IMG/VR virus record: IMGVR_UViG_3300031616_000001
Span: 54,180-118,179 of that record
Direction: 5' to 3' (one strand)
Source: a virus
DNA: 64,000 nt
Part shown: positions 16,371-32,864 of the stretch, in pieces
Numbering within the stretch: position 1 is the first letter of the stretch
Layout: each line of letters begins with the position of its first letter
Position numbers and translations under genes: made by a program
Notes under the pieces: model-generated
What the model was told of the DNA's origin: nothing
Database searches by the model: none
Seen by the model: only the letters and a program-made list of their open reading frames with translations

Positions 16371-16422
16371 CGTTTTAGTTCAGCGGCTGCCGAAGGCAGT
16401 CCGCTGGAACGAAGGGTTAGGC
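16365..16422 (-). mobile_element. integron attC site 1
   Basis: Minus strand GCCTAAC-CCTTC-GTTCCAGC...GCTGAAC-TAAAAC-GTTAGGC with canonical unpaired bases. Confidence 0.85.
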
Positions 16423-16451
16423 GCCTGGTTGAGAAGCGAAAGGACCGACGA

Positions 16452-16841: not shown

Positions 16842-16843
16842 GC
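16784..16843 (-). mobile_element. integron attC site 2
   Basis: Minus strand GCCTAAC-CCAAC-GGTGAAGGC...GCTTACC-TTCAC-GTTAGGC. Confidence 0.75.
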
Positions 16844-16866
16844 GCGTGGAACGAAGGCAGAGGACT

Positions 16867-17061
16867 ATGAGCAAGCGAAAACTCAAGAAGGCGATTTTGG
16901 CGGAGGCTCTGGCTGTGTACCGCACGACAGACTTCGGCTGCCGCAGCTTCACGGTAGACGTGACAAACGGGCAATTGGTCTATGTGCATCTGCCGCGTGA
17001 GTACCGGCCGATTGAGACGCTGATGCACCTATGCGCTCAATTGAATGGCGACAGACCGTGA
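16867..17061 (+). CDS. cassette hypothetical protein
   Basis: GAGGA RBS just after the attC. Confidence 0.5.
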   Translation: MSKRKLKKAILAEALAVYRTTDFGCRSFTVDVTNGQLVYVHLPREYRPIETLMHLCAQLNGDRP

Positions 17062-17188
17062 AGCGTCAAGACTGCTGCACTAGCTCAGAAAGCCGCGAGC
17101 CGAAGTACAAGGCGGACGACAGGCAGAGCAGCCGGTTTCTAACCGGAAGGCCCGAGCAGACAGGCTCGCTCGGTGCAGCAGTGTTGAC

Positions 17189-17245
17189 GCCTAACGTTTG
17201 AGATAAGCGGACTGTACTCAGGTCCGCTTGATCGAAGGGTTAGGC
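17189..17245 (-). mobile_element. integron attC site 3
   Basis: Minus strand GCCTAAC-CCTTC-GATCAAGC...GCTTATC-TCAAAC-GTTAGGC. Confidence 0.85.
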
Positions 17246-17269
17246 GTGGTGAACAGAGAGGAAAGAACG

Positions 17270-17530
17270 ATGAAGTGGGAAGACATCAGCTCGCACAGCC
17301 AAGGCGACAAAGAGCGAGTGCCGAACGCATGGCAATTGGATTGCGCAGGAATTCGCTTGCGAGTGCATCGGCACATCTACCATGAGCCAACGGATTGGCT
17401 GCTCAGCGGGGCGCCATGGTTCGATAGGCACAAGCTTGCTTCTCTTGGCGCTGAGGATGCGATGCGTGAGGCGGAGCAATCTTTGCTTAAAAAGATCGCG
17501 GCCGCAAACGCCGCATTGCATGACGCCTAA
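17270..17530 (+). CDS. cassette hypothetical protein
   Basis: GAGG RBS; stop lies in GCCTAAC. Confidence 0.6.
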   Translation: MKWEDISSHSQGDKERVPNAWQLDCAGIRLRVHRHIYHEPTDWLLSGAPWFDRHKLASLGAEDAMREAEQSLLKKIAAANAALHDA

Positions 17531-17545
17531 CGTTGTTATAGACAA
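17525..17545 (-). mobile_element. lone core site, attI-like or secondary insertion site
   Basis: Minus strand CTATAACAAC-GTTAGGC, with no inverse core nearby. Confidence 0.5.
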
Positions 17546-19110: not shown

Positions 19111-19540
19111 CTGTCTGATCGCCGCCATATATGCGATCGAGAAACGCCTCGGCTTCTGCTGCATCCTGCGCCCTGCGGAGTCGCGCGCGCCGGCCGAGGA
19201 ACGGCAGAATGCGATGCCACCAGCGGTGCTCGAGGCGGTCGATCATCTCGTCGAGCGCCGCCGCCATCGACGGCGCTTGCTCTACGAGGCGTGCCGCGAG
19301 CCTGCGCGCTGATTCGTCGGATTGCGTAGCCGGTGGGTCAGGCAACTCCTCCATCACCCAGATCTGCGCGCCGTACTCGCTGCGGCGGCCGCTGTCGACG
19401 TAGCGGATCGGGAAGTAGCGGCCGGCGATCTCCATGGGCACGACGACGGCCTGCGCGCGCACGGTGTTCACGCGCATGCGGCCGGCGGCCGGACCACCCT
19501 CGAAGACGATCGTCGGGCTTGCAGCGGGGAGCCTGGCCAT
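19103..19540 (-). CDS. hypothetical protein
   Basis: Co-oriented operon ORF. Confidence 0.5.
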   Translation of the reverse strand: MARLPAASPTIVFEGGPAAGRMRVNTVRAQAVVVPMEIAGRYFPIRYVDSGRRSEYGAQIWVMEELPDPPATQSDESARRLAARLVEQAPSMAAALDEMIDRLEHRWWHRILPFLGRRARLRRAQDAAEAEAFLDRIYGGDQTDE

Positions 19541-19542
19541 AG

Positions 19543-19911
19543 TCAGGAATGCGTAGGCAGGGGAGTCGACATCAGATCCGCTTCGACGAGCTCGAACAAG
19601 CCGGCCAGTTCGGCGATGCTCAGCGCATCGACCCGCGCTGCCAGCTCAGTCGAGTCGTCGAGGGCATCAACGAGCACGCGGCAGATCTGCACCAGGTCTG
19701 TCAGGCCAAGAGCACCGAGGCTGTAGGCCGTCCGCAGGCGTTGCCATTCGCCGTCGCTGAATTCAGCGCGCAGGTCGTGTTGATAGCTCTTCATCAGCTG
19801 CAGGTAGCGGTCGACGATCTGATTGATGCGCCCGCTTGCGCCCTCGCCGCCGCGCATCGCGCTCATCGTGCGCTCGGTCAGGTAGAGCGAAACGGATTTG
19901 GACTTGGCCAT
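19543..19911 (-). CDS. putative ribbon-helix-helix DNA-binding protein
   Basis: KSVSLYLTE beta strand followed by SGRINQIVDRY helix; GGAG RBS. Confidence 0.55.
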   Translation of the reverse strand: MAKSKSVSLYLTERTMSAMRGGEGASGRINQIVDRYLQLMKSYQHDLRAEFSDGEWQRLRTAYSLGALGLTDLVQICRVLVDALDDSTELAARVDALSIAELAGLFELVEADLMSTPLPTHS

Positions 19912-19950
19912 GTTGTTCTCCTCGGGAATGCGTAGCAGGGGGGTAGCCTA

Positions 19951-20793
19951 TCAAGGATGAGGATCCGGAGGCGCGGGGCGTTCCATCAGATCGTCCGGAT
20001 GCTTGCCGTAGAGCCTGGCGATGGGCTCGCGCAGATCGCGCCGCAGTTCGTCGACGAGCCGCTGCAGGACCTTGACTCGTGCTGCGTCGGCGCTGATCGC
20101 ACGGCCCTCCATCTCGGCGGCGGCCTCGTAGGCCTCGTCGTCGACATAGGGAAGCTCTCCATACCCGCTGAGGCTATAGCCGATGAGCTGCGCGAACTGC
20201 TGGCGATCGGCGTTGCTGAACTCGAGGCAGGCGATCGCGTTGAGGTCCATACCGCGTGGCTTCGCCCAATCGAGCAGCATGCGCACGATAGCGTTGCCTT
20301 GAAAGCGTGTCTTGCCGTCGACGTCGACGAGCGGCTGAATGGGTTGCGGCAATTGCATGTCGGCCTCCTGAGTTGCGGATTGCGTAGCCGGGGGTACCGC
20401 TTGAGATTGCGTAGCCGGGGGTGGCGCCTTCAGCGCGACCATGCCGTGGCCGGCAAGCGAACGCGCCGTCTGGCGGTCCAATGCCTCGCCGAAAGCGGTG
20501 CGCGGCGTCAGCACCTCCCACATGCCGAGCGCGCCGCCAAGGCCGATCAGCGTCAAAGCCGCGCCCTGATCGCCGAGCCACGCGCCGAGCTCGATGTAGG
20601 TGAGCTCGAGGCCGCAAAACACGTCGAGAATCTCGTGGAACTCGCCTTCGTGCTTGTCCACGAGCGAGCGCAGCGCAGCGGCATCCGCGGTCGGCTTCGC
20701 CTTGACGCCGAAGAAGATCACGTCGACGGCGCCGGCTTCGTTAGGCACACATTGCTCGGCATGCGCGGCGATGTACTCGGACAGCGTGCTCAT
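19951..20793 (-). CDS. two-domain hypothetical protein (possible internal start 20358)
   Basis: YIELGAWLGDQGAAL domain; QFAQLIGYSLSGYGEL domain preceded by GGAGG RBS. Confidence 0.6.
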   Translation of the reverse strand: MSTLSEYIAAHAEQCVPNEAGAVDVIFFGVKAKPTADAAALRSLVDKHEGEFHEILDVFCGLELTYIELGAWLGDQGAALTLIGLGGALGMWEVLTPRTAFGEALDRQTARSLAGHGMVALKAPPPATQSQAVPPATQSATQEADMQLPQPIQPLVDVDGKTRFQGNAIVRMLLDWAKPRGMDLNAIACLEFSNADRQQFAQLIGYSLSGYGELPYVDDEAYEAAAEMEGRAISADAARVKVLQRLVDELRRDLREPIARLYGKHPDDLMERPAPPDPHP

Positions 20794-21002
20794 GATGTTC
20801 TCCCGGTGGCTTTGGCGATGGCGGCGTCGATGTAGTCGAGTGCAGCGTTGATCTGGCGAGCACGCTTGCGCTCTTCGGCGTCGCGGTACGTTCTGAGGTC
20901 GTCGGCAATCGTGGCCATTTCGTTCCTGACGAGTGACAGCCCGTCGCGCTCGGTCTTGTTCGGTTTGCGCAGTCGCGGCCCCGGCGTGTGCACCGCGCTC
21001 AT
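20790..21002 (-). CDS. hypothetical protein (HTPG...AIAKATG type)
   Basis: Coupled ORF. Confidence 0.5.
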   Translation of the reverse strand: MSAVHTPGPRLRKPNKTERDGLSLVRNEMATIADDLRTYRDAEERKRARQINAALDYIDAAIAKATGRTS

Positions 21003-21115
21003 TGCTGACCCCACTTCGCATAGACGAACAAGGCGGCGACGCCGGCGCCGATGGCAGTGAGAACGCCGACGCAGAACCCGAACCAGAACTGCGCTTCGAA
21101 GGTCAGCGCGCTCAT
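20999..21115 (-). CDS. small membrane protein
   Basis: Single TM segment; coupled. Confidence 0.45.
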   Translation of the reverse strand: MSALTFEAQFWFGFCVGVLTAIGAGVAALFVYAKWGQQ

Positions 21116-21537
21116 GAGGCGGTCCCGGTGGCCTTTGCGATGACGGCCAGCGCTTGCTCTGCGGCGTGTGCATGCTGCATTGGCTGTTGGGCCTCGGCGC
21201 ATGCGGTCAGCGCTTCCAGCATCTCGGCGATCAGCTCGTCGCGGTCGTCGAATGGCGTGAGCTCATGTGTCGGAACGGTCTGCTTGTAGATTCTGATTTC
21301 ACGCATCCCATCGCGCGCTGCAATGACGATCGGCAGGTCAAGCGCAATCGTTGCCATCAGCGCCCGGTCTTCGACACCGAGGCTGTACACCGTGCCGGTA
21401 ACGCGTTTACCGTCATAGTCGCGATGACGAACGTGCTGACCAATGTGCAGATTCAATGCGACTCCGGCGTTCTGGGCTACGAGACAGAAACCCTCGCATT
21501 CGACGCACTGACGACCGGGCGTGTGCTGCGCGCTCAC
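21112..21537 (-). CDS. hypothetical protein (HTPG...IAKATG type)
   Basis: GTG start with GGTGG RBS. Confidence 0.55.
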   Translation of the reverse strand: MSAQHTPGRQCVECEGFCLVAQNAGVALNLHIGQHVRHRDYDGKRVTGTVYSLGVEDRALMATIALDLPIVIAARDGMREIRIYKQTVPTHELTPFDDRDELIAEMLEALTACAEAQQPMQHAHAAEQALAVIAKATGTAS

Positions 21538-22013
21538 GGCGTTACCACCTGGGATTGCGTAGCGGGGGCTGCAGGTGCCGGCGAGACAGCGGCTTTCGTC
21601 ACGTTGATGACGACGATGAGGCTGCGGCCATGCTTCATCTTGACCCGGTCTTCCTTGCTGCCGGCATACTCGCGTTCGATCTCGCGGAAGCCGAGTTCGA
21701 CGAGCGCCGCGTGCAGTTTGTCGTCGCACGTGCAGATCGCCGGCATGATGCGCAGCGTCTTGCCGTGGTCCCACGTGCTCATGTCGCGTCTGGCCAGCCG
21801 CACACCGAGGTCGTGCAGCGGCCGCAGGAAGGGGTCGAGCAGCGCGAGCTTTGCGCGGAGCGACTTGATCTCGGCGAGGCGCCGGGCGTGCAGATAATCG
21901 GCGTGCGCGGCCGAAATCTCTTCGAGCGTGCGCGGTGCGCGGCCGTTGAACTTCAGGTGGTTGTCCCACTGGTCGAGCAGTTGGAACGGCGCGGCGGGTG
22001 TGGTGGTCTGCAT
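21534..22013 (-). CDS. hypothetical protein
   Basis: AGGAG RBS. Confidence 0.6.
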   Translation of the reverse strand: MQTTTPAAPFQLLDQWDNHLKFNGRAPRTLEEISAAHADYLHARRLAEIKSLRAKLALLDPFLRPLHDLGVRLARRDMSTWDHGKTLRIMPAICTCDDKLHAALVELGFREIEREYAGSKEDRVKMKHGRSLIVVINVTKAAVSPAPAAPATQSQVVTP

Positions 22014-22082
22014 GGTCTGATCTCCTGTTTTGGGATTGCGTAGGCAAGGGGGTGCGGGCTTGCGAATGCGTAGGCGGGGGGG

Positions 22083-24653
22083 TCAGGTCGAGGCGGCCTC
22101 GCTGCAGGTCTGCGGCGCCGAGTCCGCGGCCGCGAAGTACCGCGCGGCGCCGGCATCGATCACGGCGACCATCGCCGCGCGTTCGTCGCCGCGGACGGCG
22201 GCCAGGTCGCGCAACCGGCTCACAGCGGCGCGATACGCGGCCGTCAGCGCGCCGCCGTCGGATTCCGTGGCCAGGGCACCGCCGCACGTCTCCAGGCGCT
22301 CAGCGGCCCGCATGATCTCCTCGCGGGTTACGGTTCCGTCCGCCCAGGCCTCGCACTTGCGCAACTGGTTGTGCGTGATCGCCGCCACTTGATCTGACGA
22401 CAGCACCGGGCTGCGCGGCTGCATGCCGTCGAGCGCATCGGCCGGCATCGAGGTCTTGCCCTGGTCGTCGCGGTGCGCGAGGATCAATTCGCCGCCTTGG
22501 ATCAGCAGCAGGCCGACGCCCGGGTGTGCCTCCATGTACGCATTCGCGGCGTCGACCTCGGCTTCCGGGAAGCGCGCGACAGCACGGAACCAGCGGCCGC
22601 ACGTGGCGACGTAATCGGGAGCGGCGGCGACGCTGACCGATTCGCCGGGCGGGGGTGCGTCCTTCGCTGGCGCTTCGAGCACGACCAGCACCGTATGCAC
22701 ACCGGTGCCAGAGGTCTCGAACGTGCCGGACGGCAGCGCCTCGATGCTGCTGCCGAGGCGCTCGACCAGCGCGCGAAAGTCTCGGGTCTTCCGATCGGAT
22801 CTGAAGCTAACACCGGCCGACATGATCGCGACCAAGCGACCGCCCGGCGCCAGGAACTGCAACGCGTGGTTCACGTGGTCGACGTCTGCGCCCTTGGCGA
22901 AGGGCGGGTTCATCAGGATCGCGTGAAAGTGGCTGCCGAGGGTCGCGATCGAGCACGCCAGGAAGTCACCGACCGCGAGCCGATCGACGCGCGAGCGCAC
23001 GCCATCCGCCAAGGCGTGATTGATCTCCACGGCCGTGATGTGCTTCGCGTGGCCCTCGGCGAGGATCGCGTCGACGAGTCGGCCAGTGCCTGCGCTCGGT
23101 TCGAGCACGTAGTCGCCCTGCGTGATGTTGGCAAGCTCCACCATGCGGACCGCCAGCTCGGGCGGCGTCGGGAATAACTGCGGCGCGCTGACCACCTTAA
23201 CGCCGGCCTTCAAGCTGTCGCGCATGGCTTGGAACTGATCGCGCTGTGAGTCCGTAGCCAGGGGGGCGGATTGCGTAGGTACGTGGGGCAGGGCGGCCGG
23301 CTCGATCTGGCGCTCGAACTTCGCCGGCTCGGCGGGGGCCTTCGGCTCGCTGTTCCACGGCCCGCGCGCGCGCCCCTTCGGCAGTGCGCCCGGCGCCGCT
23401 GGCGTGGATTCCTTCGCATCGGTCAGGAACACCGGAACGCGCTTCCAGCCGCCCGCGCTGCTGCACGCGGTGCGGTGCCGATGCTCGACCGCTTCGGGCG
23501 TGGCTTTGATCTTGTCCACGAAATAGGAATCGCTGCACCGGGTCGCGCGCTTCCATTCCTCCGCGGTCATTTCCTTGCAGTCGTCTGTGCGATAGTTGCA
23601 CAGCGGTGCCAGCTTGGACACGGCCGCCACCTTGGCCACTTCTTCCGGCTCAGGCGCGCGGTAATCCTTGACCTCCTCGATGCCGCGCACGTTGACATAG
23701 CGCGCCGTGGTCGTGAGGCTCACAACCTTGCCGCCGCTCTTGTTGATGCGCAGGACCACGCACCACTCGGCGCCGATCAGCACACGCCCGCCAATCTGGA
23801 TGTCGAATTGCTCCGCCGCGATCCCGCCGGAGTCCCCCAGCATCGCGCGCTCGTACTCCAGGCGGTTGCCGATGTGATCGAGCCAGCGGCGCGCGTGCGC
23901 GATCATGGCTTCGCACTGCACCAGCGATTCACGCCAAGCGGTGTCACCGTGCATGCGGCCGGCGCTCAGTTCCGAATAGATGCCATACGAGCCGACCGAG
24001 ATTCGACCGGCGAAAAACGTCGCCACTGCGGTCTGTTTGTCCCACTCGTAGCGCGGGATTTTCTGCCACGTGCGCGCCGCCGCCTCGTGATCATCAACGG
24101 TCTTCTGTTGCTTGCGCTGGTCTGACTCCAAGCCCTTGATGCGACGATGGCGCACGCCCGGGTCTTCCTTGTACTTGGCATGGCGCAGCGCACCGGCCGC
24201 GCGTGCCTTCCAGTAGGCCGAGGTCTCGAACGCCTTCACGGCCTTGCGCATGCCGTTCTCGATGCGCTCGGCATCCTTGCGCGCGTGCCGCTCGGAATGG
24301 TGGCCGACGAGGATCGGCTGGCCCAGCGGGATACCGTCCGTGATCTTGCGCACGTGCTCGGCCAAGTAGACCGCCTCGGCGCCGCGCTTGTCTTCATACT
24401 CCCCGAAGCGCTCCGCGCGTTCTTCCGCGCGGTCCATCAGCGAACGGTCGTCGTCCTCGATCTCGGCGGCCAGCTCGATGCAAAGATCGGCGCGGCCCGG
24501 CGTCCACATCGGCGCAATGAATTGCTCTTGCTTCGGGGCCCAGGCAAAGCCTGCGGCCTTGACACGGGCGTAGGTGTCGGCGTCCAGGCGAGCCGATGCG
24601 GTCAACCGCAATTTGTTGTCGTCGGGCGAATACGTGGCGGTATAGGTGGTCAT
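22083..24653 (-). CDS. DUF3560 domain fused to an N6-adenine-type DNA methyltransferase
   Basis: YTATYSPDDNKLRL, GQPILVGHHSERHAR; FPTP, VLEPSAGTG, ILMNPPF. Confidence 0.85.
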   Translation of the reverse strand: MTTYTATYSPDDNKLRLTASARLDADTYARVKAAGFAWAPKQEQFIAPMWTPGRADLCIELAAEIEDDDRSLMDRAEERAERFGEYEDKRGAEAVYLAEHVRKITDGIPLGQPILVGHHSERHARKDAERIENGMRKAVKAFETSAYWKARAAGALRHAKYKEDPGVRHRRIKGLESDQRKQQKTVDDHEAAARTWQKIPRYEWDKQTAVATFFAGRISVGSYGIYSELSAGRMHGDTAWRESLVQCEAMIAHARRWLDHIGNRLEYERAMLGDSGGIAAEQFDIQIGGRVLIGAEWCVVLRINKSGGKVVSLTTTARYVNVRGIEEVKDYRAPEPEEVAKVAAVSKLAPLCNYRTDDCKEMTAEEWKRATRCSDSYFVDKIKATPEAVEHRHRTACSSAGGWKRVPVFLTDAKESTPAAPGALPKGRARGPWNSEPKAPAEPAKFERQIEPAALPHVPTQSAPLATDSQRDQFQAMRDSLKAGVKVVSAPQLFPTPPELAVRMVELANITQGDYVLEPSAGTGRLVDAILAEGHAKHITAVEINHALADGVRSRVDRLAVGDFLACSIATLGSHFHAILMNPPFAKGADVDHVNHALQFLAPGGRLVAIMSAGVSFRSDRKTRDFRALVERLGSSIEALPSGTFETSGTGVHTVLVVLEAPAKDAPPPGESVSVAAAPDYVATCGRWFRAVARFPEAEVDAANAYMEAHPGVGLLLIQGGELILAHRDDQGKTSMPADALDGMQPRSPVLSSDQVAAITHNQLRKCEAWADGTVTREEIMRAAERLETCGGALATESDGGALTAAYRAAVSRLRDLAAVRGDERAAMVAVIDAGAARYFAAADSAPQTCSEAAST

Positions 24654-24660
24654 GGTGAGG

Positions 24661-24702
24661 CTCCTTGATGCTGCGCCCGTTGGTGGGCGTGATGGGTTTG
24701 GA
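24661..24702 (-). promoter_or_regulatory. repeated 5' leader (related copies at 26052-26092 and 29553-29593)
   Basis: TCCAAACCCATCAC-hairpin-AGCATCAAGGAG before the start codon. Confidence 0.6.
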
Positions 24703-24744
24703 GTGCGTAGGCAGGGGGTGTGCAGGAATGCGTAGCCAGGGGTT

Positions 24745-26043
24745 TCAGACCGCGCGGTTCTTGTTGCGCTCGTGGCTGGCCCATTCGAGCAACTTCGTGC
24801 CGAACTGCATGGCTTGGCCGGGTTGCGTCAGATCGAAGTCGATGTCGTTGTCGGCGTGGCCGATGGGCAGTTCGTCGTGCAGCTTGGCGCCGGTGTCCGC
24901 GATGACCTCTGCCACTTGCTGCTCAGAGTCCGCGCGCACCCAATACACCCGGTCGTCGGTGTCGTCGGTGCCGCCGTCGAATCCCGCGGCCGTAACTTCC
25001 CAGACGTGCGAGCGCGGCGCGTGCTTCGCGTCGAAGGCCTTCACCAGCCCCGGCAGTGCGGCGTGGTCGGTGCGCTCGATGTCTTCGACGTGGTTGCCGT
25101 CGGCATCGTGAATCGCAAACGTGCAGGGGATCGGCTCGGCGTCGGCCAGGGCGCGGCCGTCGATGCGCGCATCGCTCAGCGTCGTGCACTCCGCTACGGT
25201 TTGCTCGCCGTCGATCATCACGTAGAACGGGCCGCGGGGGCGTGCGCCGGCCGCGAGCCGCGCCAGGGCATAGGCATGCACCGGCGAGCCGACGGCAGCC
25301 ATGCGGGTGACGTAGGCGTGGGCGTCGTCGTCGCTGGCGAATCGGTTCTGTTCGTCGTCGCGCTGCAGGTCGCGGTCGTCGTTGAACAGCGCCCAGCCCT
25401 CGGCCTGACCCAGCGCGCCGAGTGCGGCGGCGAGTTCCTTCGCGCATTCCTCCCAGCGGTCCCAGCGCTCGCAGTAGTCGCGCAGCCATTCGCGATGGAT
25501 GCTGTTCTGCAGCACGTCGGAAACGTGCTGGTCGTCTTCGAGTTCTGCCAGCAGCTCATCAGCGCTCTTGAAGGGCAGGCCGTGCGCCTCGCAATACGCT
25601 TCGAGTTCGTCGCAGAGCGCGGCCTCGCTCGGCAGCTCGGGCGCGACCTCTGAGCGGTCGCCGATCACCGCACGCACGGCGGCGAGCAGCACCGGCACGC
25701 CATCCTGTGTGTCGTCGTCTTCGAACCCGGCAATGAAGGCCTCGCAGCGCTGCAGCAGCGGGATTGCCAGCGCGACCGGCGCGGCCTCGTCGTTCTCGTC
25801 GCTGGTGTACGTGGGAATCGTCGCGTTCGCGAAGAACTGTTCGGCCGCGCTGAGCCATGCGCCTTGCTCGTCGGTGCAGGTCGGACCCGTCTCGATGTCG
25901 CCCACCTGCGGCGCACGCGTGAACCAGCGCGCGGACATGCCCAGGTCCGGCCGGTCGTCGGCTTCGCCTTCGTGCACGGCATAGCCGGCGGCCTGCAGCA
26001 GTTGAATCAGGCGGTCTGCGATGTCGGATCGATTGGTGCTCAT
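24745..26043 (-). CDS. acidic multidomain hypothetical protein
   Basis: 432-aa ORF with AAGGAG RBS. Confidence 0.65.
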   Translation of the reverse strand: MSTNRSDIADRLIQLLQAAGYAVHEGEADDRPDLGMSARWFTRAPQVGDIETGPTCTDEQGAWLSAAEQFFANATIPTYTSDENDEAAPVALAIPLLQRCEAFIAGFEDDDTQDGVPVLLAAVRAVIGDRSEVAPELPSEAALCDELEAYCEAHGLPFKSADELLAELEDDQHVSDVLQNSIHREWLRDYCERWDRWEECAKELAAALGALGQAEGWALFNDDRDLQRDDEQNRFASDDDAHAYVTRMAAVGSPVHAYALARLAAGARPRGPFYVMIDGEQTVAECTTLSDARIDGRALADAEPIPCTFAIHDADGNHVEDIERTDHAALPGLVKAFDAKHAPRSHVWEVTAAGFDGGTDDTDDRVYWVRADSEQQVAEVIADTGAKLHDELPIGHADNDIDFDLTQPGQAMQFGTKLLEWASHERNKNRAV

Positions 26044-26115
26044 GAGTGGTTCTCCTTGATGCTTCGCGCTCGTCGCGCGTGATGGGTTTGGAAACTGGAA
26101 TGCGTAGTCGGAGGG

Positions 26116-26262
26116 CTACTGACGGTCGATCCAGTCTTCGCGGCGTTCGTCGTGCGTCAGCGCTTCGGCGCGTTTGCGGTCGGCGCGAATCGATCGCGCA
26201 ACCGCGATGCCGGCCCAGAGAATGGCCGCAGCAGCGGCGCCGATCACGAGGTATTCAGTCAT
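26116..26262 (-). CDS. small membrane protein
   Basis: MTEYLVIGAAAAAILWAGIAV. Confidence 0.5.
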   Translation of the reverse strand: MTEYLVIGAAAAAILWAGIAVARSIRADRKRAEALTHDERREDWIDRQ

Positions 26263-26720
26263 CAGTCTTCCTTGGGTTGTGCCGTGGTGGCGGCGTTGAG
26301 ATTGCGTAGGCAGGGGTAGGGCAGCGCGGATTCTGGGGCAGCCGGCGTGTGCTTGGTGCGCGGCGCTGGCACGGCGCGATTGAGGAACGCGCGCGCCTCT
26401 CGGAACGCGCGACGATGCGCGCGCCCGCGTTTCGCGCATGCCTTGGCGCCCTCGTGCTCGCCATCCTTGCGATTGCGCTCGGCGGTGTACTCCTGTTCAT
26501 CTGCGGCGCAGTCGGCAGCATCGATCAACGCCGACAGAAGCGCGACCGGCACGATCACATTGACCGGCCCGCCGCTCACGTAGCGGATACCGGAGCGGAT
26601 GCTTTCGTCGTCGTTGAACGTATCGAGCAGATGCAGCGCGGCGCCTTCGCCGGTCTCGTCGGCTTCGGCCTGCGTCTTGGCCTTGATGGTCAGTTCGAGA
26701 ATCGTGCGGAAGTTGGGCAT
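26262..26720 (-). CDS. hypothetical protein
   Basis: GGAGG RBS; MPNFRT... Confidence 0.55.
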   Translation of the reverse strand: MPNFRTILELTIKAKTQAEADETGEGAALHLLDTFNDDESIRSGIRYVSGGPVNVIVPVALLSALIDAADCAADEQEYTAERNRKDGEHEGAKACAKRGRAHRRAFREARAFLNRAVPAPRTKHTPAAPESALPYPCLRNLNAATTAQPKED

Positions 26721-26772
26721 GGGTTCCTCCTGTGAATGCGTAGCGGGGGGCGCGGAATGCGTAGCCAGGGGC

Positions 26773-27228
26773 TCAGGCCTTGGCCCGTTGCGTGCGGCGA
26801 TAGCGACGGAGTTCGCGCAGCGCATCGGCGACGTATGCGCGCGAGCGCTCCACGTTGATTGCAAGGCACCATTTCGGAAACTCGCGGCACTTGCGGTCGG
26901 CGTAAACCTTGATCGTCGCGTTCGGGAAGTCGTAGCTTTTGAGCATGGCCCTCTCCTCGGTTTCGTTGACAGCGGCCGGCGCGTCGAGCGTGCAGGCTTG
27001 AATCGCGGCAATCACTCGGGCGCGCCGATGGTGCGGCGGGTAGCGCGCCTCGATGCGCTCGCACCAGTCCAGCGGCGTGACGCGCTCGCCGGGTTCGATC
27101 AGGAACGCGAACACGTCACAGGCATGGCGGAACGTCTTCAGCACGTGCGGCGGAATGCTGGCCGCGGGTTGCATGGGAACCTGCAGGCCGCCGCGATGCG
27201 TACGCATGATCCAGACCGCCGTGCTCAC
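26773..27228 (-). CDS. hypothetical protein
   Basis: GTGA-coupled ORF. Confidence 0.45.
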   Translation of the reverse strand: MSTAVWIMRTHRGGLQVPMQPAASIPPHVLKTFRHACDVFAFLIEPGERVTPLDWCERIEARYPPHHRRARVIAAIQACTLDAPAAVNETEERAMLKSYDFPNATIKVYADRKCREFPKWCLAINVERSRAYVADALRELRRYRRTQRAKA

Positions 27229-29543
27229 CGCGCACCCCCGGCGCGGAGCACGTACACCGGCGCGAAGCGCGCGGGAATGCGTAGGCGGGGATCACCGGGC
27301 GGAATGCGTAGGCGGGGGGCAGCCGACACCGCGGCGCGTGCGCGCTCGCGCAGGGCTTCGCGGTCGAAGTCGGCCAGGGCATCGGGGCCCAGCTCGGAGA
27401 CCTCGAGGCCGTCGAGATTCGGAAGCGCCTCGGGTTCCGGCGTCGCGGTTCCAATTTCCCGGGCAGGGGATACGGAAACGCGAAGCCACTCGGACCAGTT
27501 ATCGGCGCCGAACACCTCTTTGGCTGCTACGTCGGCGGCAGGCTGCGAGGGCTCGGATTGCGTAGGCAGGGGGATGGCTTCCGCATTGGATTGCGTAGCC
27601 GGGGGGCGCGACTCGCGCGCATGCTCCGCCAGGGCATCGGCCAGGGCTCGCGCTTCATCTGCGGCATCGGCGCGCAGGTCTGCGGCGCGGCCGTGCTGAG
27701 CGATGCGCTGCAGGTGCGCCAGGACGGCCGGAGCGGCGGACAGATTGCCGGCCCGCGCTTCCGCGATGGCTGACCCGCGGCCGGAGTCCGGAGCCCATAC
27801 CATGGAAGCGCGCGCCAGCGTCGCCGCCGCGGATTTCATCTGCGCGACCGCGACGGTATGCGCGAACTCGGCGGGGGATACGTGGTGCACTGTCACTGCA
27901 GGTGCGGCCACCGGCCGGGATTGCGTAGGCAGGGGGGTGAGAGTCTCGGCGGCCAGCTCGCGCAAGACTTCCGCGCGCCGATGGTTGCCGATCGAATCCG
28001 CGGCATTGGCGCGCGTCGCGAACCGCTTCGCCGCGCGATCTGCCAGGATTGCCCGCGCGACGCTGGCGCGGAGTGCATTGGCCGCGTCGCTGCGGTACTC
28101 GGCGAAAGCGCGGAAGGTCTGCAGCGGGTCGGCCGCATCTGTAGGCGTCGCGGTTTCGAACCGTCCGAGTAGCGCGCGGGCCCGGGTGAACGTCTGGCAG
28201 TGCACGCGATAGACCGCGCCGGCCATGGCGGGCGCATTGCAGCGCGCGCGCGCCGGCCCGCAGTCCATGCGCGCGGATTCGCGCAGCGCGGCGCCGGGAT
28301 GGCCGCGGAAGGCTTCCGGAAGCGGTTCCGCCCAGACGCGCGCCGCATAGTCTGAGAATTGAGCCGATACGGCGCGCATGCCGCGCGCGGCGGCCATGGC
28401 GCGCAGCTCGGCGAATCCGGCTTCACTGTCGGCGCCAGTCAAGCCCGGGCCGGCGCACTCGAAAAACCGGGATTCGATGCGCTGCGAATCGGTGCCGATC
28501 AGATGGAGTTCGAACCGATACCGCGGCGCGTCGGCATTGGCGGCCGTGGGCGCGTCCGGCGCGGATTGCGCGGCCACGATATCGGCCGGCGCGCTGGCGT
28601 GCACTGGCGCCGCGGTTTCGTCGCTGGCGTCGGCATCGGCGGCCATGTAGTGAGCCAGCGCGGCGGATTGATCGAATGCGGCCAAACCGGCCACCGCGCG
28701 CGCCACGCGCTCGCGGAACGCGTCTTCGGCCATCTTCGATTCGATCCATGCCAGGGCCAAGGAATGTGACTTGAAACCGTCGGCCGGCGCGCCAGTCTTG
28801 ACGGTATCGACGCCAAGGCCCGACGGCGTGTGCATCACGTGGAACTTCCCGCCGTCGATAGAGCGTGCCAGGGTGAACGCATGGCCGCCGATCTCGACTG
28901 ATTCGGCGGCCATGTAGGGCCGAGGGCCGGCTCCGGACGAAACGCCAAAGTACAGCGCGCCGCGACTCGCGGCCAGCTGCAGCGCGCCGGCATAGTCGCG
29001 GGCTTCCCACATGGCACGCGCGGCCACGTGCGGCGCCGACGCGGCCGGCTTCGAAGGCTTCGCCGCGCGCCGCGCTTTGCCATCAAACGCGCCGCGGTTC
29101 GCGTGGACCTTGTCAGCCAGGACGAGAAGCGCGCCGCGCAGATTCGCGACCGTCAGGGAACCGCGCGCGCCGTCCGGCGTGCCGTAGGCGAATGTCGCCC
29201 GCGCGTTATCGCGTGCGGCCAGGAACGGCCCGGGCTTCTCGGGATGCGTCAGCATGCGCGGCCATTTGCTGGCCGGCCCTTCGGTTTCGATCTCGATCGA
29301 TGCCGCGCCGAGCACTGGCATGTAGAAGACCGCGCCGGTTTCATGTTCGGCAGGAACAGTGAACGGATACAGCCCGGGCGCGTAGCGGTCCGGGAATTCG
29401 CATTCCGGAGCGAACTCGGGCGCCAGCTCTGCAGCGGCGCGAATCGCGGCGCACAGTGCAGCGGCGCCGCTGTAGCGCGTCGCCGCGTATGCCAGGGTGG
29501 CGGAGGTGTTCGCGCTGCGCGCGGGGGTGAAAGTGGTTGTCAT
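27225..29543 (-). CDS. large Ala-rich early protein
   Basis: 772-aa ORF behind the repeated leader. Confidence 0.65.
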   Translation of the reverse strand: MTTTFTPARSANTSATLAYAATRYSGAAALCAAIRAAAELAPEFAPECEFPDRYAPGLYPFTVPAEHETGAVFYMPVLGAASIEIETEGPASKWPRMLTHPEKPGPFLAARDNARATFAYGTPDGARGSLTVANLRGALLVLADKVHANRGAFDGKARRAAKPSKPAASAPHVAARAMWEARDYAGALQLAASRGALYFGVSSGAGPRPYMAAESVEIGGHAFTLARSIDGGKFHVMHTPSGLGVDTVKTGAPADGFKSHSLALAWIESKMAEDAFRERVARAVAGLAAFDQSAALAHYMAADADASDETAAPVHASAPADIVAAQSAPDAPTAANADAPRYRFELHLIGTDSQRIESRFFECAGPGLTGADSEAGFAELRAMAAARGMRAVSAQFSDYAARVWAEPLPEAFRGHPGAALRESARMDCGPARARCNAPAMAGAVYRVHCQTFTRARALLGRFETATPTDAADPLQTFRAFAEYRSDAANALRASVARAILADRAAKRFATRANAADSIGNHRRAEVLRELAAETLTPLPTQSRPVAAPAVTVHHVSPAEFAHTVAVAQMKSAAATLARASMVWAPDSGRGSAIAEARAGNLSAAPAVLAHLQRIAQHGRAADLRADAADEARALADALAEHARESRPPATQSNAEAIPLPTQSEPSQPAADVAAKEVFGADNWSEWLRVSVSPAREIGTATPEPEALPNLDGLEVSELGPDALADFDREALRERARAAVSAAPRLRIPPGDPRLRIPARFAPVYVLRAGGAR

Positions 29544-29676
29544 GGCTTCGAATCCTTGAAGGCTTCGCGCGGTGCGCGCGTGCAGGGTTTAGGGTTCCGG
29601 GATAGTGCTTTCGCACTGGCAAGCGCGGCGCGCCATGCTTGCCAGTGCGGCCGGCGCGTGGCCGGCCGGCGCGCGT

Positions 29677-30902: not shown

Positions 30903-32468
30903 TCAAAGGTCCAGCGTGCGGCGACCATCGGCGCCCGGCACGACTTCCGGCGCGCTTGCCATCCTGGCCCGGCCGTTTGCCCATTGGCGCAGCGCTGCGA
31001 TACGCTCCGCCGCGGTTCGCACTATCGGCACGGTCGCGCCGGCCGCGCTCAACAGGTCAGCGGTTTGCAGCGGCCGCGCGCCGTCAGCGAATGCCGTAAA
31101 CATGGCGTCAGGCACGAGCGCGGCCAGCTCGGCGCCAGTGAATTCCGCGGTCGCAGCTGCCACGGCCGCCGCGTCGATGGCATCGGCGTCGCGGCCGTGT
31201 TCGCGGAGCGCGGTCTGCACGATGGCCGCGCGTTCCGTCGGCGTCGGCACGTCGACGAAAAACACTTCGTCAAACCGACCTTTGCGCATGAGCTCCGGCG
31301 GAAGCTTCGAAACGTCATTCGCAGTCGCGACGACGAACACCGACCCGGCGCGATCCTGCATCCATTGCAGAACCGCGCCCAGCGCGTCCGCACTCACGCC
31401 GCCGTCCGCCGCGCCCTGCGTGGCGCCCCCCATGGCTTTCTCGATCTCGTCAAGCCAGAGGACGCACGGCGCGACCGTCTCGGCGACTTTCAGGGCTTTG
31501 CGGATGTTGCCTTCGGACTCGCCGACCCACTTGGAGCGGAGCGCGCCCATGTCGAGGCGCAGCAGCGGCATACTCCAAGCCGCTGCGATTGCCTTTGCAC
31601 TGAGCGACTTTCCGCAGCCCGGAACACCGACGAGCAAAACCCCCTTGGGAGCGCTCAGGCCATAGGCGCGCGCGGCCGGCGTGAACGCGGCGCGGCGCTG
31701 CGTCAGCCAGGATTTGAGGTTTTCCAGTCCGCCGACCCCGTCGAGGCCAGATGCCAGGGGATCGAACCATTCAAGCACGCGTTCACGGGCAATCACGCGC
31801 CGTTTCTCTTGCGCTACCGTGGCCGGGTCAATCCGGCGCGTGGCGATGATGGAGCGCGCAAACGTGCTTTGCGCCTCTTCGGCCGACAGTCCGACGGCCG
31901 CATCAATTGCCGCGTCTCGCGTGCCGTCCGGCGCGGCCGTGGCGCGCATCTCGTCGGGAAGCGCTGCAATTGCCGCGTCAAGGATTTGCCCGACTTCGTC
32001 GCGGTCTGGCAAGGGGACATCAATCACGATTGCATGCCCCTGCAGTTCCGGCGGAACCTCTGCCGAAGGCGTCACGACGACGACGGCGCGCGCGGAGTCG
32101 CGAGCGGCAAGCGGAAGCGAGCGGCAAAGCGAGCGGAGCGCACGGGTTACCGTGGGATCGCGAAGCCACGCCGGCAGATCGCGGAGCACGTAGACGGAAC
32201 GCGAGCGCGAATCGCGCACGGCGGCCAGGGCTTGCGCCGGGTCGGTCGCGCGTGAGTCAATGTCGCCGCCCCCGACAATCTGCGTGATCCCGTTCGCGCA
32301 GTCCCACGCAATCGGCGCATATCCGGCCGATGCGGCGGCGTCGATCACGAGACGTTCGGCGCGTGCCTCTTCGCGCGTCACGAGCCAGATAAGCGGGTTG
32401 CGTGCGCGCAGTAGCGCGGCGATGTCGGCTGCGCAGCGCGCGCCGGCGGTCTGGGTCTGGGTTGTCAT
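30903..32468 (-). CDS. AAA+ ATPase (Ycf46-like, degenerate N-terminal AAA)
   Basis: GVPGCGKS Walker A, LWLDEIEK Walker B, ATAN, LPPELMRKGRFD. Confidence 0.9.
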   Translation of the reverse strand: MTTQTQTAGARCAADIAALLRARNPLIWLVTREEARAERLVIDAAASAGYAPIAWDCANGITQIVGGGDIDSRATDPAQALAAVRDSRSRSVYVLRDLPAWLRDPTVTRALRSLCRSLPLAARDSARAVVVVTPSAEVPPELQGHAIVIDVPLPDRDEVGQILDAAIAALPDEMRATAAPDGTRDAAIDAAVGLSAEEAQSTFARSIIATRRIDPATVAQEKRRVIARERVLEWFDPLASGLDGVGGLENLKSWLTQRRAAFTPAARAYGLSAPKGVLLVGVPGCGKSLSAKAIAAAWSMPLLRLDMGALRSKWVGESEGNIRKALKVAETVAPCVLWLDEIEKAMGGATQGAADGGVSADALGAVLQWMQDRAGSVFVVATANDVSKLPPELMRKGRFDEVFFVDVPTPTERAAIVQTALREHGRDADAIDAAAVAAATAEFTGAELAALVPDAMFTAFADGARPLQTADLLSAAGATVPIVRTAAERIAALRQWANGRARMASAPEVVPGADGRRTLDL

Positions 32469-32826: not shown

Positions 32827-32864
32827 ACTATAGCAGCGCAAAGGCGAAACGCAAGCAATGCTAA
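32827..32864 (-). promoter_or_regulatory. putative early sigma70 promoter with operator-like palindrome
   Basis: Minus strand TTAGCATTGC-TTGCGT-N16-TATAGT with extended TG. Confidence 0.6.

What the first reader, a model, noticed from the sequence alone, without database searches (positions are those of the whole stretch)
19321..27936. About 20 strictly co-oriented copies of GAWTGCGTAG..GGGG across the early region
All copies I found lie on one strand within 8.6 kb, often as pairs 21-33 bp apart and often just upstream of RBS/start codons (genes starting 19540, 19911, 20358, 21537, 22013, 24653, 26043, 26262, 26720). Inside genes they are read in different frames (PPATQS/PLPTQS versus PRLRIP), so selection acts on the nucleic acid. 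Possible roles (inference): stoperator-like asymmetric repressor sites, phage-specific promoters or antitermination sites, RNA processing sites, or recombination joints for gene shuffling.
Basis: partly seen in the sequence, partly recalled or inferred. Interest (0 to 1): 0.8.

Follow-up and report, generated by a model that had tools for sequence, protein, structure and literature searches.

The report
Repeated 18-base box between phage genes
A temperate phage from a root metagenome carries 21 same-direction copies of one 18-base DNA box at the gene junctions of a single accessory operon, most likely docking sites for a regulator that switches the operon's genes together, although its function has not been tested.

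Summary
GAWTGCGTAG occurs 19 times, all on the + strand, only at window 19320-27928 (0.14 expected). The 118-kb phage genome has no other copy. A weight matrix adds two degenerate copies, giving 21.

The genes here run on the minus strand. In gene sense the element is a fixed-register 18-nt box, CCCC-Y-NN-CTACGCAWTC-C. It typically fills the gap between a stop codon and the next ribosome-binding site, but about 40% of copies lie inside ORFs, in all three frames.

The same box, always in gene sense, marks the homologous module in at least 13 other uncultured contigs.

It is not a sigma-70 promoter, a hairpin or an Rfam family. The one variable core position is A or T and almost never G or C, which suggests duplex-DNA readout.

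The module always encodes a ribbon-helix-helix protein related to AcrIE10, an anti-CRISPR autorepressor.

Best reading (0.4): operator or "stoperator-like" boxes for a module regulator, with recombination at boxes as a by-product. An RNA-level role remains open.

The scan has noted analogous, but not identical, leader boxes in other phages.

The parts
27918..27935 (-). box 1 (inside the 772-aa ORF p4)
   Evidence: 29.4 bits; read as PLPTQS
27588..27605 (-). box 2 (inside p4; pairs with box 3, 33 bp apart)
   Evidence: 26.8 bits
27555..27572 (-). box 3 (inside p4)
   Evidence: 28.4 bits
27301..27318 (-). box 4 (3' end of p4; pairs with box 5, 27 bp apart; read as PRLRIP)
   Evidence: 28.3 bits
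27274..27291 (-). box 5 (3' end of p4, 46 nt before the GTG start at 27228)
   Evidence: 24.6 bits
26754..26771 (-). box 6 (starts 1 nt after the TGA of p5; pairs with box 7, 21 bp apart)
   Evidence: 27.0 bits
26733..26750 (-). box 7 (13 nt before the ATG at 26720, directly before the ribosome-binding site AGGAGG)
   Evidence: 24.5 bits
26299..26316 (-). box 8 (3' end of p6, 37 nt before the ATG at 26262; read as PCLRNL)
   Evidence: 26.7 bits
26097..26114 (-). box 9 (after the stop of p7; followed by the extended leader of p8)
   Evidence: 22.8 bits
24725..24742 (-). box 10 (starts 2 nt after the TGA of p8)
   Evidence: 29.4 bits
24700..24717 (-). box 11, degenerate (CTACGCACTC); followed by the extended leader of p9
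   Evidence: 20.1 bits
23268..23285 (-). box 12 (inside p9, in the linker between the DUF3560 and methyltransferase domains)
   Evidence: 21.4 bits; domain ranges
23247..23264 (-). box 13, degenerate (CTACGGACTC), 21 bp from box 12
   Evidence: 13.6 bits
22063..22080 (-). box 14 (starts 2 nt after the TGA of p9; pairs with box 15, 30 bp apart)
   Evidence: 25.0 bits
22033..22050 (-). box 15 (20 nt before the ATG at 22013)
   Evidence: 24.6 bits
21552..21569 (-). box 16 (3' end of p10, 15 nt before the GTG at 21537)
   Evidence: 23.2 bits
20404..20421 (-). box 17 (inside ORF 19951-20793; pairs with box 18, 27 bp apart)
   Evidence: 26.5 bits
20377..20394 (-). box 18 (19 nt before the internal ribosome-binding site and ATG at 20358)
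   Evidence: 28.3 bits
19925..19942 (-). box 19 (14 nt before the ATG at 19911 of the ribbon-helix-helix gene p15)
   Evidence: 29.8 bits
19546..19563 (-). box 20 (last codons of p15, read as PLPTHS-stop; 6 nt before the ATG at 19540)
   Evidence: 25.4 bits
19319..19336 (-). box 21 (inside p16, read as PPATQS)
   Evidence: 23.9 bits
19543..19911 (-). p15, 122 aa: N-terminal ribbon-helix-helix plus helical domain, related to AcrIE10; candidate box-binding regulator
   Evidence: AlphaFold2 pLDDT 82. Top Foldseek hits are AcrIE10, TM 0.58-0.62. Family profile against the PDB finds AcrIE10 at E=5.9e-5. Present in 7 of the 11 other box-bearing contig families.
27225..29543 (-). p4, 772 aa, unknown function: first gene of the box-bearing stretch, with five boxes in its 3' third
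   Evidence: Homologues in 5 other contig families also carry internal boxes.
22083..24653 (-). p9, 856 aa: DUF3560 domain plus N6-adenine-methyltransferase-like domain
   Evidence: Pfam PF12083 at 3.8e-34 and PHROG methyltransferase families
26044..26096 (-). extended leader of p8: CCAAACC-CATCAC-hairpin-GAAGCATCAAGGAG
24654..24699 (-). extended leader of p9, same architecture with a different stem sequence

Best explanation
The repeats are copies of one 18-bp asymmetric cis-regulatory box. In the sense of the genes it reads CCCC-Y-NN-CTACGCAWTC-C. It belongs to a conserved accessory module, probably for anti-defence, of a group of uncultured temperate phages.

I propose that the box is read on duplex DNA by a sequence-specific protein. 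The leading candidate is the module's own AcrIE10-like ribbon-helix-helix protein, p15. The alternative is the prophage repressor.

Occupied boxes sit at nearly every cistron junction, and in a cluster inside the first gene, p4. They would then hold back RNA polymerase, and possibly ribosome loading. The whole operon would be switched off gene by gene after an initial burst, or during lysogeny, much as the stoperators of cluster A mycobacteriophages work.

Because each gene carries the same box at its 5' edge, homologous recombination between boxes would gain, lose and fuse gene cassettes as a by-product.

Shown here: the anatomy, strand bias and conservation of the box, the absence of promoter and RNA-fold signals, and the kinship of p15 to AcrIE10. 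Inferred: that a protein binds the box, which protein it is, and the roadblock effect.
For: 1. Counts. There are 21 copies on one strand and none elsewhere in 118 kb. Across about 110 kb of the 12 contig families, 82 boxes lie in gene sense and 0 in antisense.

2. Fixed register. 88 sites share the same 18-19-nt register, with no information outside positions -8 to +11. That is the size of a protein footprint.

3. Variable position. The only variable core position is A (28) or T (45), against C (1) and G (0). An A/T swap is typical of duplex-DNA readout and would break pairing with an RNA partner.

4. Copies away from starts. 37 of 89 copies are not near a start or a stop, and these lie mostly in the 3' part of p4 homologues from several lineages. 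This fits a need for site density rather than for translation starts.

5. Tandem copies. 27 adjacent pairs are at most 57 bp apart, and arrays of 4 occur. This is usual for operator sites.

6. A candidate binder in the module. p15 is found in 7 of the 11 other box-bearing contig families; the remaining four are fragments of 2.5-7.3 kb. A box, or in some lineages a degenerate copy, lies within about 50 nt upstream of its start.

7. Kinship of p15. Its fold and sequence profile match AcrIE10. AcrIE10 is a ribbon-helix-helix autorepressor of its anti-CRISPR operon (PMC13530269, sections 6, 7 and 13 read). [quoted passage not shown]

8. Precedent. Stoperators are asymmetric sites that act only in one orientation and lie in short intergenic spaces (PMC9283540, passages read).
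Against: - No binding was tested or can be modelled with these tools.
- Known ribbon-helix-helix regulators, including AcrIE10 and Aca14, bind inverted repeats that overlap a promoter. The box is not palindromic and has no promoter beside it.
- Spacings within tandem pairs range from 19 to 33 bp with no helical phase. This argues against a rigid dimer-of-dimers arrangement.
- The DNA-facing strand residues of p15 vary among homologues although the box core does not.
- No box lies at the putative operon promoter, nor in the first 5 kb of the operon. Stoperator systems have an operator at the early promoter.
- Strict co-orientation could simply be inherited, because the box travels with co-directional genes.
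- The sense-strand RNA around the box is unstructured and C-rich, and it lies directly 5' of ribosome-binding sites. That suits an RNA-level role equally well.
- Seven extended leaders carry a hairpin with compensating stem changes, which shows that some RNA-level signal exists here.
Confidence: 0.4

Rival explanations
1. RNA-level, start-associated element. On the mRNA the unstructured C-rich box just 5' of the ribosome-binding site acts as a ribosome standby site or translation enhancer. Alternatively it is the operator of an RNA-binding regulator or the target of an endoribonuclease. Either way, each cistron of the long operon would be translated or processed in a coordinated way.
For: - 40 of 89 boxes have a ribosome-binding site plus start within 60 nt downstream, and proximal boxes end 12-21 nt before the start codon.
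- The sense RNA is less folded than shuffled controls, z +0.7 to +1.1 for four short junctions.
- All copies are in mRNA sense.
- Seven boxes are followed by a conserved leader, and in 6 of these 7 a hairpin keeps its position while its stem sequence changes.
- The helix-turn-helix regulators Aca1 and Aca2 bind RNA motifs in 5' UTRs as well as DNA (PMC13551039, passages read).
- The start-associated sequences of cluster K mycobacteriophages are a known unexplained parallel (PMC3203893, passages read).
- CUACGCAUU is complementary to 9 nt of the 690 loop of a real 16S rRNA.
Against: - 37 of 89 copies lie inside ORFs with no start nearby.
- The A/T alternative at core position 7 is a transversion, which an RNA partner would not tolerate. 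The AATC form pairs with only 7 nt of the 16S rRNA.
- 1.5% of shuffled cores reach the same 16S complementarity.
- Several genes in the stretch have no box (starts at 21116, 21002, 20793 and 19110).
Confidence: 0.25
2. Recombination joints as the primary role. The boxes are short, shared homology or site-specific crossover points. Promoterless gene cassettes are exchanged, deleted or fused at them, much as with the PeSL cassettes of T4-type phages or in an integron.
For: - The order p4...p9...p10...p15 is kept among contigs, while the genes between them differ and are flanked by boxes. The window has about four genes between p10 and p15 that G001 lacks, and G001 has an extra ORF between p9 and p10.
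- Several BLASTN homology blocks end 0-8 nt from a box in both partners.
- Boxes lie in inter-domain linkers of apparently fused ORFs (p9, ORF 19951-20793).
- The phage encodes a RecT-like annealing protein.
Against: - Boxes sit at almost every junction, so any gene-level gain or loss is flanked by them regardless of cause.
- The contigs are too diverged (65-88% identity) to map crossovers.
- One clear replacement inside p4 (G003 against L224) has a box at only one end.
- A 10-nt core kept perfectly across lineages whose shared proteins are only 30-73% identical needs direct selection, which evolvability alone rarely provides.
- The box has no palindromic recombinase core.
- Tandem copies are unexplained.
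Confidence: 0.1
3. Phage-specific promoters. Each box would be a compact promoter read by a dedicated polymerase, or by host polymerase with a phage factor, giving each gene its own transcript.
For: - The size (18 nt), asymmetry, co-orientation and position just upstream of ribosome-binding sites resemble single-subunit polymerase promoters.
- An extended leader with a 5'-proximal hairpin follows seven boxes.
Against: - No T7-like polymerase or sigma domain was found in the complete genome. The polymerase search had no positive control, so that part is weak.
- There is no -35/-10-like conservation around or in the box.
- The promoter scan found 2 sites in 17.5 kb against 1.8 expected, neither at a box.
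- Many copies lie inside ORFs and in tandem.
- In many cases the ribosome-binding site starts 0-8 nt after the box.
Confidence: 0.07
4. Replication or partition sites: iterons of an origin lying in and after p4, or centromere-like repeats bound by a ribbon-helix-helix partition protein.
For: - Direct repeats lie inside a gene, as in the lambda O gene (recalled).
- Arrays of four occur in G002 and L218.
- Ribbon-helix-helix proteins such as ParR, ParG and omega bind direct-repeat centromeres (recalled).
Against: - The copies spread over 8.6 kb at gene junctions rather than forming one array.
- No AT-rich unwinding region lies nearby. GC is 0.65-0.70 across the whole stretch.
- No ParA-like neighbour was found by Pfam or PHROGs in the operon.
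- The phage has an integrase.
Confidence: 0.04

Closest known systems
Stoperators of cluster A mycobacteriophages (L5 gp71 and the TipsytheTRex repressor; PMC9283540, passages read)
   Same: Both are short asymmetric DNA sites present in 20 or more copies. Both have an orientation locked to the direction of transcription. Both lie largely in short intergenic spaces of a temperate siphovirus that depends on host RNA polymerase.
   Different: - Stoperators are 13 bp, spread over the whole genome, and include an operator at the early promoter. The box is 18 bp, confined to 8.6 kb of one operon, and absent from the putative promoter.
- Tandem pairs and clusters inside genes are common here.
- The stoperator binder is a monomer with a helix-turn-helix and a stoperator domain. 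Here the only candidate is a ribbon-helix-helix protein, and binding is untested.
Start-associated sequences (SAS and ESAS) of cluster K mycobacteriophages (Pope et al. 2011, PMC3203893, passages read)
   Same: - Both are asymmetric repeats in one orientation and restricted to the non-structural part of the genome.
- Both are conserved in front of genes of different families, and neither has a known function.
- A subset carries an additional upstream or downstream extension. Here that extension is a leader hairpin.
   Different: - SAS contains the ribosome-binding-site core and lies 3-7 bp from nearly every associated start.
- The box lacks a ribosome-binding site and ends 6-72 nt from starts.
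- About 40% of the copies here are not start-associated.
PeSL (promoter-early stem-loop) cassettes of T4-type phages (Arbiol et al. 2010, PMC2839356, abstract read)
   Same: Both are repeated short regulatory units at the boundaries of small non-essential genes in a hyperplastic region. In both, gene gains and losses between relatives are flanked by the repeats.
   Different: - A PeSL is a strong sigma-70-like promoter plus a terminator stem-loop. The box has neither.
- No mini-circle or deletion junctions were seen here. The only data available were assembled contigs, which cannot show rare forms.
Operators of anti-CRISPR-associated ribbon-helix-helix regulators (AcrIE10, PMC13530269; Aca14, PMC13551039)
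   Same: A ribbon-helix-helix regulator is encoded inside an accessory or anti-defence operon, and repeated cognate sites allow several transcription units or genes to be controlled together. p15 is a detectable relative of AcrIE10.
   Different: Known operators are inverted repeats overlapping the -10 or -35 element of a promoter, with one or a few per locus. Here there are 21 non-palindromic boxes inside one operon, without promoters.

Membership tests
Stoperator system (cluster A mycobacteriophages) | Many copies of a short asymmetric DNA site | tested here: met
   21 copies of a non-palindromic 18-bp box
Stoperator system (cluster A mycobacteriophages) | Orientation correlated with the direction of transcription | tested here: met
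   21 of 21 in gene sense in the window. 82 sense and 0 antisense over the 12 contig families.
Stoperator system (cluster A mycobacteriophages) | Sites spread over the genome, including an operator at the early lytic promoter | tested here: not met
   All sites lie within 8.6 kb of a 118-kb genome. None lies near the putative operon promoter at about 32.83-32.85 kb (promoter read by eye).
Stoperator system (cluster A mycobacteriophages) | Bound by a monomeric immunity repressor (helix-turn-helix plus stoperator domain) that blocks elongation in one orientation only | not testable with these tools
I did not search for a gp71-like repressor.
Start-associated sequences (cluster K) | The repeat contains the ribosome-binding-site core and lies 3-7 bp from the start codon at virtually all sites | tested here: not met
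   The box has no GGAG. Only 40 of 89 sites have a start within 60 nt, and 37 of 89 have neither a start nor a stop nearby.
Start-associated sequences (cluster K) | One orientation, restricted to non-structural genes, conserved before different gene families | tested here: met
PeSL cassettes (T4-type phages) | Sigma-70-like early promoter within the repeat | tested here: not met
   No conserved hexamers outside or inside the box. The promoter scan found no site at a box.
PeSL cassettes (T4-type phages) | Stem-loop terminator within the repeat | tested here: not met
   Box regions fold no better than shuffled controls, z +0.7 to +1.1. Only 7 extended leaders carry a small hairpin.
PeSL cassettes (T4-type phages) | Recombination between copies generates gene gains, losses and mini-circles | tested here: inconclusive
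   Gains and losses are flanked by boxes. The contigs are too diverged to map crossovers. No credible box-to-box joint was seen in the one DNA run, which is held only as assembled contigs.
Aca-type operator (AcrIE10, Aca14) | Inverted repeat overlapping the operon promoter | tested here: not met
   The box has no dyad symmetry and no promoter signal.
Aca-type operator (AcrIE10, Aca14) | Cognate ribbon-helix-helix regulator encoded in the regulated operon | tested here: met
   p15: top fold match is AcrIE10, TM 0.58-0.62; family profile E=5.9e-5.
Origin iterons | One compact array of direct repeats next to an AT-rich region | tested here: not met
   Copies spread over 8.6 kb. GC is 0.65-0.70 throughout.
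Integron attC sites | Imperfect palindrome of 57-141 bp with R''/L''/L'/R' cores (feature recalled, from no call) | tested here: not met
   The box is an 18-nt non-palindromic element, and no fold is found.

The most novel reading that the evidence does not exclude
On the mRNA, the box is a second ribosome-docking element that works independently of the ribosome-binding site. Its core, CUACGCAUU, would pair with the universally conserved 690 loop of 16S rRNA (helix 23, on the 30S platform beside the path of the mRNA 5' of the ribosome-binding site). Pairing would pre-load ribosomes in front of each cistron of the anti-defence operon. The complementarity is real: 9 nt against positions 689-697 of a Paraburkholderia 16S rRNA. 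It is weakened because 1.5% of shuffled cores do as well, because the equally common AATC variant pairs with only 7 nt, and because about 40% of boxes are far from any start.
Probability: 0.04. Interest if true: 0.85.

Novelty: new variant of a known kind. Interest (0 to 1): 0.55.

Why it matters
If a protein reads the boxes, this would be a stoperator-like system that silences genes cistron by cistron, but outside the actinobacteriophages. It would be tied to an accessory operon that looks anti-defensive and to a ribbon-helix-helix relative of an anti-CRISPR autorepressor. That would widen the known ways in which phages time and limit expression of costly counter-defence genes.

The box is also a practical marker. 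A search for its tandem form pulled the same module out of metagenomes. The genes it flanks, which differ from contig to contig and are nearly all of unknown function, are a ready list of candidate anti-defence genes. If the box works on RNA instead, it would give the unexplained start-associated sequences of mycobacteriophages a second example to test.

Tried and rejected
- **Near relatives among isolates.** Megablast of the 9-kb region against isolated phages found nothing. tblastn of p15 against isolated phages and PLSDB plasmids found nothing. The capsid and AAA-ATPase genes have only distant relatives, below 45% identity.
- **Literature.** A full-text search for the four 10-mers returned 120 papers. 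The 20 listed use them as primers or unrelated oligonucleotides, and none concerns phage repeats. I therefore found no description of this box in that library.
- **Pattern scan of bacterial genomes.** Only L190 (a Myxococcota MAG contig with a 33-bp tandem array, the same array as L227) and one local cluster in L184 (a Stenotrophomonas MAG) looked related.
- **Host.** The p15 profile was not found in the 396 Burkholderiaceae-family genomes scored. That search had no positive control, so it shows little. Among 401 genomes of the family of L184, 44 had the box pattern, nearly all as single background hits, and none had a cluster. The host remains unknown.
- **RNA evidence.** No RNA holder was listed for this stretch. 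The one run is DNA and is probably the source sample. Its contigs gave only joints with short sides of 20-21 nt, none at a box. This is not evidence for or against expression or recombination.
- **Known RNA families.** Rfam at E up to 1 gave only two chance-level matches, unrelated to the boxes.
- **p4.** Pfam, PHROGs and the protein atlas gave nothing usable.
- **Co-variation of p15 and box.** One further scan of viral contigs, with P0015, found no relative. Two distant family members that could be read have no box (L249, L250). The two lineages that differ in the p15 N-terminal strand also differ in the left half of the box (CCCCY against CCCCGT or ACCCGT). That is too few lineages to count.
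- **Readings rejected on sequence alone.** I considered a sigma-54 promoter, an RpoH or ECF-sigma promoter, the Caulobacter-type -10 element, the RfaH ops element, REP/RAYT repeats, IHF and DnaA boxes, Chi-like sites and CcrM (GANTC) sites. I compared each with its consensus as I recall it and rejected each by eye. No tool was used for these comparisons.

Full report
**The observation.** The pattern GAWTGCGTAG has 19 exact matches in the 64-kb window. All are on the + strand, between 19320 and 27928. Dinucleotide shuffles expect 0.14, and none of 100 shuffles reached 19. The window is the right-hand 64 kb of a 118,179-bp IMG/VR virus record whose ends repeat 127 bp. The ends repeat most likely because the contig is a circular assembly; that is my inference. 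In that whole record the count is 19 forward and 0 reverse. Allowing one mismatch adds one copy that belongs to the series, at 24701. A weight matrix finds a further degenerate copy at 23248. The total is 21 hits of at least 12 bits on one strand, all within window 19329-27928. The other strand of the whole genome has one weak hit.

**Orientation and anatomy.** GC3 frame analysis and the ORF lists show that the genes here run on the minus strand. They form a 15-kb leftward operon from about 32732 to 17711. So in the sense of the genes the element reads ...CCCC...CTACGCAWTC. I aligned 88 distinct sites from 12 contig families. C is at 88-95% at positions -7 to -4, Y at -3, and two positions are free. 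The invariant core CTACGCAWTC follows, and then C at +10 in 78% of sites. There is no information beyond -8 and +11. It is therefore a fixed-register 18-nt asymmetric box, not a core with a variable gap.

I then required only the C-run and allowed any base at core position 7. That position is A 28 times, T 45 times, C once and G never. Only 8 further sites differ from the core at a single position. The antisense strands of the same contigs have no such site.

**Where the boxes sit.** In the window, boxes precede the starts at 27228, 26720, 26262, 26043, 24653, 22013, 21537, 20358, 19911 and 19540. In several cases they fill the whole gap between the upstream TGA and the next ribosome-binding site. 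An example is TGA-box-box-AACAGGAGA-ATG at 22085-22011.

Over all contigs:
- 40 of 89 sites have a ribosome-binding site plus a start within 60 nt downstream.
- 33 of 89 have the stop of a substantial ORF within 40 nt upstream.
- In 14 of those 33 the stop ends 0-3 nt before the C-run.
- 37 of 89 have neither a start nor a stop nearby.

The sites with neither lie inside ORFs, above all in the 3' part of the 772-aa ORF p4 (27225-29543) and its homologues. p4 has five in the window and eight in L221. Boxes covered by an ORF are read in all three frames, split 36/22/16. The commonest reading is P-x-x-T-Q/H-S, which would suit disordered linkers. Four gene starts in the stretch have no box: 21116, 21002, 20793 and 19110. 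Tandem pairs are common. Their spacings of 19-33 bp show no helical periodicity.

**What kind of genome.** PHROGs identify a terminase, a capsid-protease fusion, a portal, a tape-measure protein, tail proteins, an integrase and a RecT-like protein. This is a temperate siphovirus. The one sequencing run that holds it is labelled a root metagenome. It has no close relative among isolated phages.

The operon encodes:
- an AAA ATPase (30903-32468);
- several proteins of unknown function;
- an 856-aa protein with DUF3560 and an adenine-methyltransferase-like domain (22083-24653).

From recall, this type of protein occurs in anti-restriction regions of plasmids and phages. No T7-like polymerase domain was found in the genome, but that search had no working control. 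No sigma-70 region 2 or region 4 was found either, and those searches did have working controls.

**Relatives.** A scan of IMG/VR for a tandem pair of the core, together with a protein search, found three viral contigs with the box:
- G001 has 12 copies on one strand.
- G002 has 7 clustered copies, including four in tandem.
- G003 has 4 copies.

A stricter tandem pattern scanned over metagenome contigs found eight more contig families with 3-9 copies each: L218, L221, L224, L226, L227, L232, L236 and L242. L220 and L239 duplicate G001 and L218. Two further IMG/VR contigs, L246 and L247, carry the variant ACCCGT-NN-CTACGCATTC.

In every case the boxes are in gene sense and at the same kinds of position. 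The flanking genes differ widely, but a backbone recurs in the same order. p4 is found in 5 of the 11 other families, p9 in 3, p10 in 3 and p15 in 7. The remaining contigs are short fragments.

**What it is not.**
- The promoter scan found 2 sigma-70-like sites in 17.5 kb against 1.8 expected, neither at a box. The alignment shows no hexamers.
- Four short junction RNAs fold less well than shuffled controls (z +0.68 to +1.07). Two longer leaders fold slightly better (z -0.65 and -0.95).
- Rfam has nothing at the boxes.
- Bacterial genomes of two candidate host families show only single background occurrences or no hit. The box is therefore not a host genomic repeat in the genomes sampled.

**The candidate reader.** p15 (19543-19911, 122 aa) is the only protein of the backbone with a recognisable nucleic-acid-binding signature. 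Its family alignment has an N-terminal strand, K-S-V-Y-L-T. It also has the near-invariant S-x-R-x-N-x-I-x-D-R-Y at the start of a long helix.

The AlphaFold2 model has a mean pLDDT of 82. Its best PDB matches are the three AcrIE10 entries, over the full length, with TM 0.58-0.62 and probability 0.77-0.93. The Foldseek E-values of 0.36-0.88 are not significant on their own. A profile of 66 family members hits AcrIE10 at E=5.9e-5. The 10-sequence profile gives E=0.034.

AcrIE10 is a dimeric protein with an N-terminal ribbon-helix-helix domain. [quoted passage not shown]

The p15 family has 188 representatives at E of 0.001 or better. Twelve of the 152 representatives I could read end in x-x-T-Q/H-S. 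That is the peptide a box gives in its commonest frame, so those genes probably also end in a box. Two distant members whose DNA I could read have no box. One of them, L250, sits behind a sigma-70-like promoter with a palindrome, the classical Aca arrangement.

**Weighing the mechanisms.** Four features favour a protein reading duplex DNA, with site density mattering more than proximity to starts:
- the A/T-only degeneracy;
- the footprint-sized fixed register;
- the tandem copies;
- the many copies inside ORFs, clustered in the first gene.

Strict co-orientation with transcription is the hallmark of stoperators, which lose function when inverted (PMC9283540, passages read). A regulator gene placed late in the operon, with a box at its own start, would give delayed negative feedback. 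That is the logic of Aca regulators (PMC13530269; PMC13551039, passages read).

Against this reading:
- Known ribbon-helix-helix operators are palindromic and overlap promoters.
- Pair spacings here are irregular.
- The strand residues of p15 vary while the core does not.
- No box lies at the putative promoter or in the first 5 kb of the operon.
- Co-orientation may simply be inherited together with co-directional genes.

I put this reading at 0.4.

An RNA-level role keeps 0.25. Half the boxes abut ribosome-binding sites, the RNA there is unstructured, and HTH-type Aca regulators are known to bind RNA as well as DNA. Seven boxes are also followed by a conserved leader, CCAACC-CATCAC-hairpin-GAAGCATCAAGGAG. 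In 6 of these 7 the hairpin keeps its place while its stem sequence changes.

Recombination at boxes is very likely to happen and would explain the box-flanked gene gains and losses and the fused ORFs. I rate it at 0.1 as the primary function. A dedicated promoter gets 0.07, and iterons or a centromere 0.04.

**Comparison with what is known.** The box works most like a stoperator, but it fails that family's genome-wide distribution and promoter-operator features. It resembles the start-associated sequences of cluster K phages in being an unexplained, one-orientation repeat of the non-structural genes. It fails their defining tie to the ribosome-binding site and start (PMC3203893, passages read). 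It shares the cassette-boundary position of PeSLs but has neither promoter nor terminator (PMC2839356, abstract read).

I found no description of this sequence in the searchable literature. Earlier notes of this scan describe analogous, non-identical leader boxes in other phages, and these gave me the leads to SAS and PeSL.

I class the box as a new variant of a known kind. It is of moderate interest because it is linked to an AcrIE10-like regulator and to a set of candidate anti-defence genes, but no function has been tested.

Noticed in passing
window 26044-26096 and 24654-24699 (minus strand); also G001, L221 and L232: Seven boxes are followed by a conserved extended leader, CCAACC-CATCAC-[hairpin]-GAAGCATCA-AGGAG-ATG. 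In 6 of these 7, a 4-6-bp hairpin sits at the same place with a different stem sequence (compensatory change). The leader precedes p8, p9 and their homologues. It looks like an RNA-level element of its own.
   Followed up: partly
window 19543-19911 (minus strand): p15 resembles AcrIE10 over its whole length, including the C-terminal domain that binds Cas7 in AcrIE10. It is therefore also a candidate anti-CRISPR protein. Its family has 188 representatives at 50% clustering and no Pfam or PHROG name.
   Followed up: partly
window 29612-29648 (minus strand): A 13-bp perfect inverted repeat, CGCACTGGCAAGC-N11-GCTTGCCAGTGCG, lies about 70 nt upstream of the p4 start and just after a GC-rich hairpin. 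An imperfect copy sits at the same place in L221. It could be the classical palindromic operator for the ribbon-helix-helix protein, or an RNA hairpin.
   Followed up: partly
window 19951-20793 (minus strand): A single open frame contains two boxes, then a good ribbon-binding-type start signal (ribosome-binding site plus ATG at 20358), with no stop codon before it. It looks like two cassettes fused, or a gene with an internal start. Likewise, the box pair at 23247-23285 lies in the linker between the DUF3560 and methyltransferase domains of p9.
   Followed up: no
core of the box compared with 16S rRNA (L243, positions 689-697): CUACGCAUU is perfectly complementary to 9 nt of the 690 loop of a Paraburkholderia 16S rRNA. 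308 of 20,000 shuffled cores do as well. The AATC variant pairs with only 7 nt.
   Followed up: yes
L190 1500-1830 and L227 100-280: A tandem array with a 33-bp period and about 10 partly degenerate units, each containing CCCCGTCA-CTACGCATTC, lies in a Myxococcota MAG contig and in a metagenome contig. It may be a box array or a coding repeat.
   Followed up: no
window 32827-32854 (minus strand): By eye, TTGCGT-16 nt-TATAGT lies in the only AT-richer stretch upstream of the operon's first gene (start at 32732). It is a candidate operon promoter. The scan tool did not call it, because only 3 of 6 bases match in the -35 hexamer.
   Followed up: no
window 30903-32468 (minus strand): The AAA ATPase at the head of the operon is 44.6% identical over its full length to the AAA-ATPase of Corndog-like mycobacteriophages (PHROG 8638). 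Its capsid gene is closest to Pseudomonas phage PAJU2.
   Followed up: no
window 9944-13530 and 16173-17545; genome about 12.8 kb before the window's start: Other first-reader notes on this genome (Ro60 with Y-RNA-like units, attC-like sites, pentamer arrays) lie outside this finding and were not examined.
   Followed up: no
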